Part shown: piece after piece, positions 210 to 4,254 of the stretch | How positions within the stretch are numbered: position 1 is the stretch's first letter | Layout: each line of letters begins with the position of its first letter | DNA from: a virus | Taxonomy: Duplodnaviria; Heunggongvirae; Uroviricota; Caudoviricetes | Length of the DNA: 4,371 nt | Reading direction: 5' to 3' (one strand) | IMG/VR virus record: IMGVR_UViG_2537561992_000028 | Location: 1-4,371 of that record | Position numbers and translations under genes: made by a program | Notes under the pieces: model-generated | Told to the model about the DNA's origin: nothing | Databases searched by the model: none | The model's input: the letters and a program-made list of their open reading frames with translations, nothing else

Positions 210-395
210 ATGTCATCGAAAAACCGGACCCGCAGAACCACAATCCGCAATATCCGTTTCCCCAATCACATGATTGAACAGCTCAATATCGCCCTTGAAC
301 ATAAAGGTTCCGGTAACTTTTCAGCGTGGGTTATTGAAGCCTGCAGAAGAAGGCTGTCAACAGAGCGTTCGGGTATGAATTACATAATTAAGTAA
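210..395 (+). CDS. Small ribbon-helix-helix-like (DUF3950/YlcI-like) protein, 61 aa
   Basis: ATG at 210 with GAGGA at 199-203 (6-nt spacer). Basic N-terminus, then a predicted beta-strand (IRNIRFPNHMIEQL) and helix (NIALEHKGSGNFSAWVIEACRRR), the pattern of Arc/CopG-type RHH DNA binders. Diverges from the HNH gene; a similar small protein sits here in DLP12-type prophages (from memory). Confidence 0.5.
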   Translation: MSSKNRTRRTTIRNIRFPNHMIEQLNIALEHKGSGNFSAWVIEACRRRLSTERSGMNYIIK

Positions 396-1269: not shown

Positions 1270-1728
1270 CTAGTTAATACACTGAGTGCGGATATATTCC
1301 TGAAGCATTCTCAATGCTGCCTGGTCGCTGATGATTCCGTCTCTGATACCGAGAACGTTTCGTCCAGCAACCGGAGAGAGTTCGACGGCGGCATCATTGC
1401 CCACGCCGGAGGTGCCGGTGGCTTCACGCACGGTACCGGGGCAGGTGGCGTTGATCCGCAGGCGCTTACGACCAGCGGCAACATCAGCACGCAGAGTTTC
1501 ATTTTCAGCTCTCGCATCGGCTAATTCCCTCGAGTATTTTGCATCGAGCGCAGCAACATCGCGCTGGCGCACCTGCATATCAGTAATGGTTGCGTTTGCC
1601 AGATCCAGCTCACTGGCTTTTTTATCGCGCTGCGCTTTGTAGGTGATGGCGTTATCGCGGTAATGATTCAGCCCCAGACTAAGCGCACCACAGACCACCA
1701 GCAGAATAACGGTAAACGCGGAAAGCAT
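1270..1728 (-). CDS. Rz: Rz i-spanin (inner-membrane spanin subunit), 152 aa
   Basis: Translation from ATG 1728: [96 protein letters not shown].... This is near-collinear with lambda Rz as I recall it ([38 protein letters not shown]), with an N-terminal TM segment and a coiled-coil periplasmic domain. The track's 207-aa ORF is an in-frame upstream extension from a TTG with no homology support. Confidence 0.85.
1311..1517 (-). CDS. Rz1: Rz1 o-spanin (outer-membrane lipoprotein spanin subunit), embedded in Rz in the +1 frame
   Basis: [44 protein letters not shown].... Signal peptide with lipobox VSAC and a proline-rich mature part, matching lambda Rz1 (MLKLKMMLCVMMLPLVVVGC...CVKPPPPPAW). Lies wholly inside Rz, the lambda-type embedded arrangement. 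Confidence 0.75.
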
Positions 1729-1739
1729 TCGGTTTATGC

Positions 1740-1871
1740 TCACCCCAGCAGCCCCGACGAAGACAACATCATCCAGCCCATGGAAAGAAAAAGAGCAACC
1801 AGCATTAGTGAAAATGAAATGCCGACGATTACACAGAGGATCTTCGCCAGCATTATGAGTTTGTCTGACAT
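1740..1871 (-). CDS. Hypothetical small hydrophobic protein (43 aa) just upstream of Rz
   Basis: ATG at 1871-1869 with AAGGGG 5 nt upstream; TGA stop at 1742-1740, 11 nt before the Rz ATG. Translation [43 protein letters not shown], one long hydrophobic segment. Below the 60-aa cutoff of the ORF track; found by hand translation. Confidence 0.35.
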
Positions 1872-2041
1872 AGCTACCCCTTAATTGCCACAATTCACTG
1901 GGATACTACCCATAAAAAAGGGATGCTCCAGACCAGCAAAAATTTCCAGTTTGGTAATTGACTAATCATGAGTCGCAACTCCCTAATCAGTTTGCTAAAA
2001 TCAATCAAGGCAGCCTCCCATAGCTTACTGCCATAAACATA

Positions 2042-2163: not shown

Positions 2164-2697
2164 TTATCTGTCGATACCCCAGCACGCCAGCGCACTTTCC
2201 TGATCTCGCCGGGATACCTGACCGTAGCAATTATTTGAGCGGATACGGCAGTCTCTGCCACCGTCCTTAATCCACCAGCGAATCGCTTCGCAGGCACCTT
2301 TTCGATCACCTGCATTAATTCGTTTATAAAACGTCGACGGGAAACACTTACCGGGGCCAATGTTATACGGACAGAATGACGCGATCCCCGCTTTCTGGGG
2401 TTCGGTCAGCGGCACTTTGATGTTTTTCTCCACCCATGCCAGCGCCTTGTCACGTTCGATGGCGTTAACCTGGTCGCATTTTTCCTTCGTCAGTTTCATG
2501 CCAGGAATAACAGGCTTACCATCCACCCGGGTGGCTCCACGGCAGATGGTCCAGATACCCGCACCATCACGGTATGCCGTGGTGTGGTTACCTTCCTTTT
2601 CATCCAGAAACTGGTCGAGGATTTCAGGCGCAGACGCCCCTGCACCAATCAGCGCCAGAACGGCAGCCGACAGGCCGTATTTGATTTTTGCGTTCAT
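2164..2697 (-). CDS. R: SAR endolysin (signal-anchor-release lysozyme, glycoside hydrolase family 24)
   Basis: 177-aa ORF MNAKIKYGLSAAVLALIGAGASAPEILDQFLDEKEGNHTTAYRDGAGIWTICRGAT.... The Gly/Ala-rich weakly hydrophobic N-terminus is a typical SAR domain. The catalytic motif E-x8-D-x5-T (EGNHTTAYRDGAGIWT) is that of T4/P21-type lysozymes. No strong SD upstream. Confidence 0.9.
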   Translation of the reverse strand: MNAKIKYGLSAAVLALIGAGASAPEILDQFLDEKEGNHTTAYRDGAGIWTICRGATRVDGKPVIPGMKLTKEKCDQVNAIERDKALAWVEKNIKVPLTEPQKAGIASFCPYNIGPGKCFPSTFYKRINAGDRKGACEAIRWWIKDGGRDCRIRSNNCYGQVSRRDQESALACWGIDR

Positions 2698-2827
2698 GGA
2701 TATTTATCAGGATTTATCGGTTCCGAATCCCTGGATATGTTAAGCCTTCACCCCACCAGTGGTGGGCACTGGCGGGTTCTTAATTTCCCCGGATGATCGT
2801 GGATTACATTCCACCAGGAGATTACTT

Positions 2828-3460
2828 ATGCTTATCTATCCAGCGGCAGACCTCCGTTTACAGGGACGCAGAGCACAACCATGGGATAAAACAACCACTC
2901 ATAAATATCGTCCCGGTCAATATTATGACTTTCGTAAACACCCGGAACTGATCGAGACACACCTTGAGGATTTTGTTGAATATTCAGACAGACAAGCGAT
3001 TCAGACCTTTTTTTCTTTTGTTAAGTGGATCAACAGCAATTCATCTGCATTCGAGAGCACGGACTGCATGTTTTCAGGAACACCAAAGGTTGATGAATAC
3101 GCCCCGGTATTTGGTTGCACCCATGCGTCATCTGGCCGCTTCGAATTTTTGTTTCGCGATACGAAAATAAACCAAAATGAGCGAGCTGTCGGATGGGTAC
3201 TTAACAAACTATCGCTCTACCTTCAGAAAGAACGGCCCGATTTTTGTAAAGGAACCTTTGGCATCGTTCCCCTCATGACGGAATATACCGACTCCGGCGG
3301 TAACGAGTTCACCGGTTATCGTATTTGTGTCTATTTCGATGCTTACGGGAATGGAACAGAGGATACCTGGACTTCTCTCAACATCATGTTTGATGGCCTC
3401 ATGAAAGCCACCAAAAGAATGAGCAATGAAACAATCACTGGCGAGATGCGTCCCCTTTAA
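2828..3460 (+). CDS. Hypothetical protein of unknown function (210 aa), convergent with the late operon
   Basis: ATG at 2828 with AGGAG at 2816-2820 (7-nt spacer). About 127 codons (2828-3208) not shared with any other long frame. TAA at 3458-3460, followed by a short hairpin and T7 run. The track's 233-aa version starts at a GTG at 2759. No recognisable motif. Confidence 0.45.
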   Translation: MLIYPAADLRLQGRRAQPWDKTTTHKYRPGQYYDFRKHPELIETHLEDFVEYSDRQAIQTFFSFVKWINSNSSAFESTDCMFSGTPKVDEYAPVFGCTHASSGRFEFLFRDTKINQNERAVGWVLNKLSLYLQKERPDFCKGTFGIVPLMTEYTDSGGNEFTGYRICVYFDAYGNGTEDTWTSLNIMFDGLMKATKRMSNETITGEMRPL

Positions 3461-4000
3461 AAAATTATCCAGAATCTCACTATTTGCAGAGCGCTCTCTG
3501 TTTTTTTGAATACGGAAACACTCTGCGAGATTTCTGCTCATCACTTTCCGGCAATAATCGTAAAACGCCGCGAACTGCTCATCACGGCGTTTTTTTTCAC
3601 CTTCGGAAGGGATCTGCACCGACAGTTTTTTATTCAGTTCAACGACGCTGTTCTCCAGTTTTTCAATGCGTGATTCGATATCATCTTTTTCTGACTGTAT
3701 CGTGTTATATGCATTGTTAATTTGTATGGTATACCGCTCTTCTGAACAGAGGCGCTTTTCCGGCAACGGTTCGTTCCCTTCACATAACCCGGCAGCAATA
3801 TCCATGAAAAACTGCTTCGCCTTCTTTTTCGCCTCAGCTTCGTAAAACTCCAGCGGGGCACCTTCAACACGATCAAGATCAATCACCACATTTGGCAACA
3901 ACAGTGACGTATACCCACCAGTTTCCAGCGCCACAGTAACAGTAATCTTATCCGGGTAAATATTTATCCCTTTAACAACCAGTTCGTATTGTTTATTCAT
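3209..4000 (-). CDS. Hypothetical protein of unknown function (263 aa), directly downstream of and translationally coupled to the holin
   Basis: ATG at 4000-3998, 3 nt after the holin TAG, with GGGGAGAG overlapping the last holin codons. About 180 codons (3461-4000) not shared with the plus-strand ORF. Predicted beta-rich N-terminus, central charged helical/coiled-coil stretch (EKDDIESRIEKLENSVVELNKKL), and a C-terminal part that overlaps the convergent ORF. No recognisable catalytic motif. Confidence 0.55.
   Translation of the reverse strand: MNKQYELVVKGINIYPDKITVTVALETGGYTSLLLPNVVIDLDRVEGAPLEFYEAEAKKKAKQFFMDIAAGLCEGNEPLPEKRLCSEERYTIQINNAYNTIQSEKDDIESRIEKLENSVVELNKKLSVQIPSEGEKKRRDEQFAAFYDYCRKVMSRNLAECFRIQKNRERSANSEILDNFLKGTHLASDCFIAHSFGGFHEAIKHDVERSPGILCSIPVSIEIDTNTITGELVTAGVGIFRHEGNDAKGSFTKIGPFFLKVER
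3486..3507 (+). terminator. Weak terminator-like hairpin plus T7 run 3' of the plus-strand ORF (lies inside the minus-strand ORF)
   Basis: cagag (3487-3491) / ctctg (3496-3500) 5-bp stem with 4-nt loop, then ttttttt at 3501-3507, starting 26 nt after the TAA at 3458-3460. Stem is short, so function is uncertain. Confidence 0.3.
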
Positions 4001-4003
4001 CGT

Positions 4004-4210
4004 CTACTCTCCCCGCGCCGCCTTACGACGGTCCTCTCTGATTTTGAAATACAGGTTAGTAAGATACGTCAGCAGGCCAAACAGCAGACTCCCCAGCACA
4101 CCTATCGCCACCCACTGGGACGGAGAGACTTTGTCCAGCAGCTGCAGTAACCAGTATCCCGTCCCCACCGCTGACGTGGTGTATGACACACCTGTTGTGA
4201 TTTTTTCCAT
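4004..4210 (-). CDS. S: Class II holin (pinholin, phage 21 S-like)
   Basis: 68-aa [71 protein letters not shown]. Near-collinear with the phage 21 S holin as I recall it (...[14 protein letters not shown]...[22 protein letters not shown]). Two TM segments; GGAG about 11 nt upstream. Confidence 0.9.
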
Positions 4211-4254
4211 CTGATGTATGTCTCCGTCACCGCCGACAGAAAATGAAAGTAAAG

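What the first reader, a model, noticed from the sequence alone, without database searches (positions are those of the whole stretch)
3212..3460. Tail-to-tail overlap of the two unknown ORFs in the same codon register
From the coordinates, both ORFs use the same triplet boundaries on opposite strands across about 83 codons. In this register a stop on one strand corresponds to TTA, CTA or TCA on the other, so a real gene easily leaves a long open shadow frame opposite it. Either one C-terminal region is an artefact of the other, or this is a true long convergent overlap, which is rare and would tie the two genes' expression and evolution together.
Basis: seen in the sequence. Interest (0 to 1): 0.45.

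Follow-up and report, generated by a model that had tools for sequence, protein, structure and literature searches.

The report
Conserved antisense gene nested in phage gene
The 84-codon tail-to-tail overlap is real: its minus-strand reading frame is a small protein gene that is conserved inside the end of an unannotated 210-residue gene on the opposite strand across many phages, and here it is fused to a lysis-region gene.

Summary
**Observation.** Confirmed. The + ORF (ATG 2828..3460) and the - ORF (4000..3209) share triplet boundaries over 3209-3460, which is 84 triplets.

**Gene A (+ strand).** It belongs to a large uncharacterised family of about 210-residue proteins. The structure model is confident (pLDDT 92), including the overlapped third.

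**The - ORF is a chimera.**
- Residues 1 to about 165 are a DUF1327/YdfR core.
- Residues 168-263 are "gene B".

**Evidence that B is a real gene, from about 40 relatives of A at 36-56% identity:**
- The antisense frame over A codons 129-210 has no stop, while A codons 1-128 carry 2-13 antisense stops.
- The frame usually ends exactly at A codon 128.
- It starts with an ATG preceded by a Shine-Dalgarno-like motif just outside A.
- Its non-overlapping N-terminus shows coding periodicity.
- A's synonymous sites are frozen exactly where a change would alter B's motif GPFY. For example, Pro137 is CCC in 17 of 18 cases against a 16% background.
- Column-wise, antisense residues are over-conserved in 31 of 80 overlap columns against 7 of 123 control columns.

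**Context.** A and B move together as an 800-bp cassette. A always lies antisense to a phage late operon and B runs with it.

**In this window.** B has lost its own start and its first 8 codons, and is read as a 263-residue fusion.

**Function.** Unknown. I infer a lysogeny/lysis antagonistic pair. Annotation pipelines lose one or both genes.

The parts
2704..3503 (.). 800-bp A/B cassette. In compact relatives (S, a 287-aa DUF1327 gene, then R) this stretch is replaced by 397 bp.
   Evidence: blastn of the window against L012/L013 matches only 2035-2703 and 3504-4213. GC is 45% against 54% for the flanking holin and lysozyme genes.
2828..3460 (+). Gene A, 210 aa. It belongs to an uncharacterised family and lies antisense to the phage late lysis operon.
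   Evidence: Full-length homologues at 53-65% identity. 227 cluster representatives at E<=1e-3. AlphaFold2 pLDDT 92.1 and pTM 0.89, with residues 129-210 at 95-98. Substitutions follow pos3 > pos1 > pos2 in this frame. No Pfam, PHROG, PADLOC or NCBIfam match.
2817..2821 (+). Shine-Dalgarno AGGAG, 6 nt before the ATG of gene A.
   Evidence: Read directly from the sequence.
3209..4000 (-). 263-aa fused ORF: DUF1327/YdfR core joined in frame to gene B.
   Evidence: ORF. Pfam DUF1327 matches residues 1-96 with E 7.5e-34. PHROG 2091 matches residues 1-168. The family has three alternative tails after F162.
3504..4000 (-). DUF1327/YdfR core part of the fusion (residues 1 to about 165).
   Evidence: DNA homology to the compact DUF1327 loci L012/L013 ends at 3504. 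Protein alignment.
3209..3499 (-). Gene B part (residues 168-263 plus the stop). It is homologous to B codons 9-104 of relatives that have their own ATG. 83 of its sense codons are nested antisense in A.
   Evidence: Homology to L093 starts at 3499. B proteins P0288 and P0291 are 104 aa and 86% and 76% identical. Family-wide tests.
3209..3460 (.). The codon-aligned dual-coding overlap (84 triplets).
3209..3211 (-). Stop codon of B (TAG), which is A codon 128 (Leu, CTA). The position is conserved.
   Evidence: An antisense stop sits at this column in 14 of 19 representatives, p 0.0003 against synonymous resampling.
3227..3238 (.). A codons 134-137 (AAA GAA CGG CCC), which are B residues F-F-P-G on the other strand. 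This is the block with frozen synonymous sites.
   Evidence: In the family: Pro137 is CCC in 17/18, Arg136 is AGG or CGG in 18/18, Glu135 is GAA in 19/19, Val134 is GTA in 12/12 and Ile134 is ATA in 6/6. Background use is 16%, 23%, 69%, 21% and 35%.
3486..3508 (+). Terminator-like hairpin plus T run, 26 nt after the stop of A and inside the - ORF.
   Evidence: One site was found in the scanned region, against 1.4 expected by shuffling, so it is weak on its own. Relatives have a hairpin at the same place.
4004..4210 (-). Holin S (phage 21 type), upstream gene of the late lysis operon.
   Evidence: Pfam Phage_holin_2_1, E 8.8e-33.
2164..2697 (-). Endolysin R, downstream gene of the late lysis operon. 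Late transcription must cross the cassette to reach it.
   Evidence: Pfam Phage_lysozyme, E 1.3e-25.

Best explanation
The overlap is a genuine, evolutionarily maintained dual-coding region that belongs to a mobile two-gene phage cassette.

Gene A (+ strand, 210 aa) is an autonomous gene set antisense into a phage late operon. Gene B (- strand, about 90-105 aa in relatives) starts a few codons beyond A's stop. It runs codon-aligned and antisense through A codons 210 to 129, and stops at A codon 128.

In this window a recombination at about 3503/3504 removed B's Shine-Dalgarno site and its first 8 codons. It joined the rest of B in frame to the first ~165 residues of the DUF1327/YdfR gene that follows holin S. 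B is therefore made only as the tail of a 263-aa protein translated from the late lysis transcript.

Shown here:
- A is a real gene across the overlap.
- B's frame, start, stop and residues are conserved beyond what A imposes.
- A and B move together, always in the same orientation relative to late operons.
- The - ORF in the window is a chimera.

Inferred:
- A is expressed from the prophage and B with the late genes.
- Their convergent transcripts are mutually antisense.
- B, possibly together with the antisense late RNA, switches off or counteracts A during lytic growth.

I put about 0.3 on this functional part.
For: 1. A is real in the overlap.
- Full-length homologues occur in at least five unrelated contexts.
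- Substitutions follow pos3 > pos1 > pos2 in the A frame.
- The confident fold includes residues 129-210.

2. Antisense stop depletion.
- Among Leu/Ser codons of 20 representatives below 85% nt identity, 4 of 259 in the overlap are TTA/CTA/TCA, against 105 of 365 in codons 1-127 (Fisher p 1e-22).
- All 4 are in L005 and L008.
- Per-sequence synonymous shuffles combine to p 4e-13.

3. B has an ATG with a GGAG/GAGG/AGGA-type motif 4-9 nt upstream in 16 of 17 non-enteric representatives. It also has AGGAGG or GGGAGAG before the ATG in the closest relatives L091 and L093.

4. B's non-overlapping codons 2-11 show coding periodicity. Differences at positions 1/2/3 are 140/70/186 and 62/61/92. The 33 nt upstream give 224/229/233 and 74/99/100.

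5. A's synonymous sites are frozen on rare codons exactly where B's GPFY would change. They vary freely where the change is silent or conservative in B: CAG/CAA 11:8, AGG/CGG 11:7.

6. Column test. Antisense residues are more conserved than synonymous resampling allows in 31/80 overlap columns at p<=0.05 and 11/80 at p<=0.001. The internal control, A codons 1-127, gives 7/123 and 0/123.

7. A's synonymous-difference fraction falls from 0.586 to 0.498, with a minimum of 0.41 at codons 131-150.

8. Mosaic boundaries respect B. L067 keeps 3216-3503 and loses the rest of A. L091/92 and L095-97 have a truncated A but an open B.

9. Orientation. In nearly all phage loci both flanks of A lie on B's strand. 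The contexts are between tail genes I and J, after K, after the tape measure, and in lysis cassettes.

10. The window ORF is a chimera.
Against: - There are no expression data for either gene.
- The AlphaFold2 model of B is poor (pLDDT 46.7, pTM 0.26, 15 sequences).
- Within the close enteric clade, substitutions follow A's frame more than B's. For example, window vs L091 has 5 synonymous and 20 non-synonymous changed codons in the B frame, against 9 and 16 in the A frame.
- In the window B has no start codon of its own, so it could be a relic here.
- In L005 (a Salmonella prophage remnant) B carries three stops while A is intact. In L008 B is 4 codons shorter and has no clear Shine-Dalgarno site.
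- The representatives share ancestry, so the p values are not exact. The N-terminal two-thirds of the same genes serve as the control.
- A-ending codons in general are rarer in the overlap (30.5% vs 45.5%). This could be a consequence of B rather than an independent bias.
- The proposed function rests on architecture only.
Confidence: 0.8

Rival explanations
1. B is a real gene in the family, but in this window's lineage it is a decaying relic. It lost its ribosome-binding site and first codons at the junction, and the 96-residue tail of the DUF1327 fusion is functionless baggage that has simply not yet acquired a stop.
For: There is no in-frame ATG/GTG/TTG at B's normal start; the window reads AGT GAG ATT CTG. 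The window alone gives only p 0.05 for the open frame. E. coli copies are nearly identical, so they carry no information on selection. One copy (L045) has two homopolymer deletions that unlink B. PGAP calls the DUF1327 gene a pseudogene.
Against: The tail keeps every invariant B position: P38 and GPF.L. It is kept open in four diverged enteric lineages at 76-86% identity, including three in which A itself is truncated. At least two further junctions, in L095 and L067, are also in frame.
Confidence: 0.15
2. The antisense frame is kept open so that it is translated, not for its product. Ribosomes on the late transcript would protect it while it crosses the antisense cassette, against Rho, RNases or pairing with A's mRNA.
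For: B is always co-oriented with the late operon and starts right after the preceding late gene. B's model is poorly structured. Constraint on B's residues is moderate over much of its length.
Against: Residue-level conservation of B goes beyond what A imposes. That includes rare A codons fixed so as to keep GPFY, which mere openness does not require. B also covers only about a third of the cassette, leaving about 500 nt untranslated in the late direction.
Confidence: 0.07
3. Shadow-ORF artefact. Only A is a gene, and the open antisense frame and its apparent conservation follow from A's sequence and codon bias, or from a nucleic-acid element.
For: This register is the one most easily left open. 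The overlap of A has few Leu/Ser codons. P(open) is 0.05-0.2 for the window alone. Third-position A is generally lower in the overlap.
Against: The depletion holds in about 18 lineages saturated at synonymous sites, with the same genes' first 127 codons as control. The ATG and Shine-Dalgarno site are conserved, and there is coding periodicity outside A. Variation falls exactly at sites that are silent in both frames. No Rfam family matches.
Confidence: 0.03

Closest known systems
Antisense embedded overlapping genes of bacteria, e.g. ano inside ECs2385 in E. coli O157:H7 (PMC5960689), three further EHEC cases (PMC9927249), and olg1/olg2 in Pseudomonas aeruginosa (PMC8850804)
   Same: A protein-coding ORF lies antisense inside an annotated or annotatable gene, so both strands code. 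Annotation pipelines discard one partner.
   Different: By their abstracts, those cases are chromosomal and described as evolutionarily novel, and they are supported mainly by RNA-seq and Ribo-seq. Here the support is comparative. The pair is conserved down to 36% identity of the host gene, in phages of enterobacteria and Pseudomonas-like hosts. It travels as a mobile cassette. The nested gene's 5' end lies outside its partner. In this window it is fused to a third gene.
Phage morons: autonomous genes with their own promoter and terminator inserted between late genes, e.g. lambda bor (from my own knowledge)
   Same: The cassette has lower GC and sits between adjacent late genes at different positions in different phages. 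A is antisense to the operon and is followed by a hairpin and T run.
   Different: A moron is normally a single gene. This one carries a second gene nested antisense that is read with the late operon. No sigma-70 promoter consensus was found for A.
Convergent antisense-controlled pairs such as type I toxin-antitoxin loci whose transcripts overlap at their 3' ends (from my own knowledge)
   Same: The two transcripts are necessarily complementary over about 250 nt, which would make their expression mutually exclusive. The partner is kept when the other gene is truncated.
   Different: Here both partners encode proteins. No toxicity, no PADLOC match and no TA family match were found.
DUF1327/YdfR family (Pfam PF07041). 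K-12 YdfR binds the catalytic half of RNase E and may bind RNA (PMC13232886).
   Same: Residues 1-96 of the - ORF match the family. The gene sits directly after holin S, as in other lambdoid prophages.
   Different: The family's own C-terminal ends are replaced by gene B. Those ends are either a short one (169-183 aa forms) or a ~125-residue domain (287-330 aa forms).
Rz/Rz1 nested lysis genes
   Same: They are another pair of genes sharing DNA in the same lysis cassette, and they are present in this window.
   Different: Rz1 is nested on the same strand in another frame. A and B are on opposite strands in the same triplet register.

Membership tests
DUF1327/YdfR (PF07041) | Match to the Pfam model above its gathering score | tested here: met
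   Residues 1-96, 116.3 bits against a cut-off of 25, E 7.5e-34.
DUF1327/YdfR (PF07041) | Family-type C-terminal end (the short end, or the ~125-residue domain of the 287-330 aa forms) | tested here: not met
   The alignment diverges after F162. The tail is the antisense of gene A.
Functional antisense overlapping gene (dual coding) | The antisense frame is kept open in diverged homologues beyond chance | tested here: met
   4/259 against 105/365 stop-equivalent Leu/Ser codons. Combined shuffle p 4e-13.
Functional antisense overlapping gene (dual coding) | Own start codon and ribosome-binding site | tested here: inconclusive
   Met in relatives: 16/17 representatives, plus L091 and L093. Not met in the window itself, where B is fused in frame to DUF1327.
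Functional antisense overlapping gene (dual coding) | Constraint on the partner's synonymous sites, and conservation of the antisense residues beyond what the partner imposes | tested here: met
   The N-terminal two-thirds of A is the negative control.
Functional antisense overlapping gene (dual coding) | Coding signature where the gene does not overlap its partner | tested here: met
   Differences at codon positions are 140/70/186 and 62/61/92 in B codons 2-11. Upstream they are 224/229/233 (flat) and 74/99/100.
Functional antisense overlapping gene (dual coding) | Evidence of translation (Ribo-seq, mass spectrometry) | not testable with these tools
   No expression data are available here.
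Shadow ORF (non-functional open antisense frame) | Open frame and antisense similarity fully explained by the sense gene's protein and codon usage | tested here: not met
Phage moron | Inserted between adjacent genes of an operon that are contiguous in related phages | tested here: met
   The compact S, DUF1327, R loci L012/L013 lack it. The breakpoints are 2703/2704 and 3503/3504.
Phage moron | Own promoter and terminator | tested here: inconclusive
   A terminator-like hairpin with a T run was found at 3486-3508. No sigma-70 consensus was found.
Known anti-phage defence or toxin-antitoxin families | Match to a PADLOC, Pfam or NCBIfam model | tested here: not met
   No match for A or B.

The most novel reading that the evidence does not exclude
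B arose by overprinting inside the 3' third of A in a phage-borne branch of the A family, and the pair is a self-silencing moron. Under this reading A acts in the lysogen. When the late operon fires, the late transcript is antisense to A's mRNA and at the same time encodes B, a protein that neutralises or replaces A. Nesting makes the switch impossible to separate by recombination. Chromosomal and remnant copies of A that no longer sit in a working late operon (L005 and the distant bacterial members) have lost B or never had it, which fits this reading.
Probability: 0.25. Interest if true: 0.9.

Novelty: new variant of a known kind. Interest (0 to 1): 0.78.

Why it matters
Long antisense overlaps in which both frames are demonstrably under selection are rare in bacteria and phages, and their existence is disputed. 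This pair offers unusually clean comparative evidence. The same gene supplies its own negative control, there are dozens of diverged copies, and the start, stop and residues are all conserved. The mutations that would separate the two frames are also obvious.

It also exposes a systematic annotation loss. In the complete RefSeq E. coli genomes carrying the cassette that I inspected, gene A, a 210-residue protein with a confident fold, was unannotated. The minus-strand partner was called a pseudogene, labelled "hypothetical protein", or not annotated at all. The GenBank phage records annotate only the fused - ORF.

The cassette sits in the lysis region of Stx1a- and Stx2a-converting prophages, so any effect on lysis or lysogen fitness bears on toxin release.

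Tried and rejected
- **Family libraries.** Pfam, PHROGs, PADLOC and NCBIfam gave nothing for A or B. Pfam on longer members of the A family found only DUF2934 in one.
- **Structure of B.** Low confidence.
- **Rfam.** No family in the window.
- **Promoter scan.** No sigma-70 consensus in 2600-4100.
- **The search for related loci with the broad alignment.** It failed and had to be repeated with close members.
- **Pure junction by-product.** My first reading was that the tail is just a by-product of the cassette junction. I rejected it after one search showed the frame open in relatives that have no DUF1327 gene.
- **Selection test on near-identical E. coli copies.** Too little variation.
- **Literature search for DUF1327/YdfR.** It returned only the RNase E interaction study.

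Full report
**1. What is in the window**

The window is the lysis region of a lambdoid prophage, read on the - strand.
- Holin S lies at 4004-4210, a 263-aa ORF at 3209-4000, endolysin R at 2164-2697, and Rz/Rz1 further on.
- Positions 2700-4010 are 100% identical to five Stx1a-converting phages. Positions 2700-3641 are 98.8% identical to three Stx2a-converting phages.
- 119 of 5426 complete E. coli genomes carry at least 80% of this stretch.

**2. The observation**

- The + ORF is listed from GTG 2759. Its real start is most likely ATG 2828, with AGGAG at 2817-2821, and homologues begin there. It ends at 3460.
- The - ORF ends at 3209.
- Both use triplets that begin at coordinates equal to 2 mod 3, so the overlap 3209-3460 is 84 shared triplets.
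- The + gene has antisense-stop codons (TTA/CTA/TCA) at codons 11, 53, 72, 83, 101 and 128, and none after that.
- On this sequence alone that is only mildly unusual, with P about 0.05-0.2.

**3. The + ORF is a real gene (A) throughout the overlap**

- It has full-length homologues at 53-65% identity in Salmonella and in metagenomes.
- An exhaustive search gives 227 cluster representatives at E <= 1e-3, almost all about 200-215 residues and aligned end to end.
- Substitutions follow pos3 > pos1 > pos2 in the + frame. In the overlap the fractions for pos1, pos2, pos3 are 0.33, 0.20, 0.53. In the unique part they are 0.37, 0.20, 0.61.
- AlphaFold2 with a 35-sequence alignment gives pLDDT 92.1 and pTM 0.89. 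Residues 129-210 form two long strands and the C-terminal helix, at pLDDT 95-98.
- A has no Pfam, PHROG, PADLOC, NCBIfam or PDB relative.

**4. The - ORF is a chimera**

- Residues 1-96 match DUF1327/YdfR.
- Family members share the core up to "...AECF" (F162) and then carry one of three ends:
  - a short one (169-183 aa);
  - a ~125-residue domain (287-330 aa);
  - the window's tail.
- DNA comparison with the compact S, 287-aa, R loci shows that window 2704-3503 is an 800-bp replacement.
- At that point the tail looked like a read-through by-product of a junction.

**5. The frame is open in relatives that have no DUF1327 gene**

I fetched 75 loci that encode relatives of A. Together with the earlier ones they gave 54 unique sequences.
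- In about 40 of them, at 36-56% identity to A and 40-52% GC, the codon-aligned antisense frame has no stop over A codons 129-210.
- The same genes carry 2-13 antisense stops in codons 1-128, and most have one exactly at codon 128.
- In 20 representatives below 85% nt identity, stop-equivalent codons make up 4 of 259 Leu/Ser codons in the overlap (all in L005 and L008) against 105 of 365 upstream. Fisher p is 1e-22. Within-gene synonymous shuffles combine to p 4e-13.
- Distant, non-phage members (26-31% identity) do not show this.

**6. The frame behaves as a gene (B)**

- *Start.* An ATG lies 3-12 codons beyond A's stop. A GGAG/GAGG/AGGA-type motif sits 4-9 nt upstream in 16 of 17 non-enteric representatives.
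- *Periodicity outside A.* The non-overlapping codons 2-11 differ at positions 1/2/3 by 140/70/186 in one clade and 62/61/92 in another. The 33 nt upstream give 224/229/233 and 74/99/100.
- *Stop.* An antisense stop sits at the same column in 14 of 19 representatives.
- *Residues.* B ends in GPFYL[KQE].., and keeping that motif requires rare codons in A:
  - Pro137 is CCC in 17/18 (background 16%).
  - Arg136 is AGG or CGG in 18/18 (23%).
  - Glu135 is GAA in 19/19.
  - Val134 is GTA in 12/12 and Ile134 is ATA in 6/6.
  - Sites silent in both frames vary freely: Gln133 CAG/CAA 11:8, and Arg136 first base A/C 11:7.
- *Whole overlap.* Given A's residues, antisense residues are more conserved than synonymous resampling allows in 31/80 columns at p<=0.05 and 11/80 at p<=0.001. 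A codons 1-127 give 7/123 and 0/123.
- *A's synonymous diversity.* It drops from 0.586 to 0.498, with a minimum of 0.41 at codons 131-150.
- *Database calls.* Gene callers have occasionally called B: 94-116-aa proteins turn up in the protein collection, all unnamed or called "hypothetical protein".

**7. A and B move together in a fixed orientation**

The cassette is found in several contexts:
- between tail genes I and J (L053, L074, L011);
- after tail gene K (L071, L017, L083);
- after the tape-measure gene (L088);
- next to holins (L008, L091);
- here, between DUF1327 and R.

In nearly all of these loci both flanks are on B's strand and A is the lone antisense gene.

**8. State of B in this window**

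- The closest relatives have a 104-aa B that begins MGHNNDKS, with its own ATG preceded by AGGAGG or GGGAGAG (L091, L093).
- Homology to the window starts at B codon 9, which is window 3499.
- The window therefore encodes DUF1327(1 to ~165) joined to B(9-104).
- At B's usual start the window reads AGT GAG ATT CTG, with no start codon.
- Other arrangements exist:
  - a 178-aa fusion with a different linker, in which A codons 1-82 are deleted (L095-97);
  - a 385-aa ORF made of the DUF1327 core, B and the long C-terminal domain, in which A codons 1-129 are gone and the breakpoint is at 3216, right next to B's stop (L067);
  - a self-starting B next to an internally deleted A (L091/92).
- B thus persists when A is broken.
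- The reverse occurs in the Salmonella remnant L005, where A is intact and B carries three stops.

**9. Cautions**

- No expression data exist for this cassette.
- B's structure model is poor.
- Among the close enteric copies, substitutions follow A's frame more than B's.
- E. coli copies are too alike to test selection.
- The p values ignore phylogeny. The N-terminal two-thirds of the same genes act as the control and show no inflation.
- A-ending codons in general are rarer in the overlap. That is expected if B is coding, but it is not independent evidence.

**10. Mechanism**

- *Shown:* the region is dual coding, A and B travel together as a cassette with a fixed orientation, and the - ORF in the window is a fusion.
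- *Inferred:*
  - A is expressed from the prophage. It is followed by a hairpin and T run at 3486-3508, but no promoter was found.
  - B is translated from late transcripts, which are antisense to A's mRNA over about 250 nt.
  - The two products would therefore be temporally exclusive, with B counteracting or replacing A in lytic growth.
- The rival readings are a relic in this lineage, translation needed for its own sake, and a shadow ORF. They are scored separately.

**11. Comparison and novelty**

The closest known kind is the antisense embedded overlapping gene of EHEC and Pseudomonas aeruginosa (PMC5960689, PMC9927249, PMC8850804). This case differs in four ways:
- It is conserved across phage lineages.
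- It is mobile as a pair.
- It is anchored in late operons.
- Here it is fused to a third gene.

Current annotation loses it. The phage records annotate only the fused - ORF. In the RefSeq genomes inspected, PGAP calls a DUF1327 pseudogene, a "hypothetical protein" or nothing, and leaves A unannotated.

Noticed in passing
window 1270-1893 (-) and 1311-1517 (-): An Rz-like ORF contains an Rz1-like lipoprotein ORF ([15 protein letters not shown]...) in another frame on the same strand. This is the classical nested lysis pair, and so a second case of shared DNA in the same window.
   Followed up: no
L003 (phage PhiR12_1) 2610-2870 (+) and 2818-3327 (-); L067 816-1136 (+): The slot between the DUF1327 gene and R is a hot spot for different + strand genes set antisense to the lysis operon. 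In PhiR12_1 a DUF1823 gene overlaps the end of a 169-aa DUF1327 gene by 53 nt. L067 holds another 106-aa + ORF that ends 8 nt inside the - ORF.
   Followed up: partly
window 2704-2773, with an inverted repeat CCCACC-agt-GGTGGG at about 2752-2766: The first 70 nt upstream of R are shared with PhiR12_1, which carries a different cassette, but not with the compact loci. This stretch includes a short GC-rich hairpin. It may be a common regulatory or recombination segment of the slot.
   Followed up: no
- ORF residues 1-96 (window 3713-4000): K-12 YdfR, the founding DUF1327 protein, was reported in 2026 to bind the catalytic half of RNase E through its first 72 residues and to co-purify with RNA (PMC13232886). 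The window's fusion would tether B to such a domain.
   Followed up: partly
L049, L050 (A near codon 60); L045 (window-equivalent 3466 and 3507): Among about 22 near-identical copies, two have a 1-nt frameshift in A. One has two 1-nt deletions in homopolymer runs that disconnect B from DUF1327. These may be real decay or sequencing errors.
   Followed up: partly
L008 7618-8660: In a Salmonella prophage, Kiwa defence genes (KwaA, KwaB) lie about 3 kb from the A/B cassette.
   Followed up: no
window 210-395 (+): A 61-aa + ORF (MSSKNRTRRTTIRNIRFPNHMIEQLNIALEHKGSGNFSAWVIEACRRRL...) lies opposite the lysis genes. By eye it looks like a small ribbon-helix-helix DNA-binding protein.
   Followed up: no
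NZ_AP018808 (L004), NZ_AP024921 (L098), NZ_CP077481 (L099), LC567819 (L001): Annotation of this cassette is inconsistent. The - partner is given as a pseudogene, a 161-aa or 263-aa hypothetical protein, or nothing. The 210-aa gene A is missing in all four records inspected.
   Followed up: yes
A family alignment A2: Residues invariant across 35 members are R15, P39, E47, D48, E76, D79, R104 and G163, within motifs LEDF, ESNDC and GR. This looks like an active or binding site, but no fold relative was found.
   Followed up: partly
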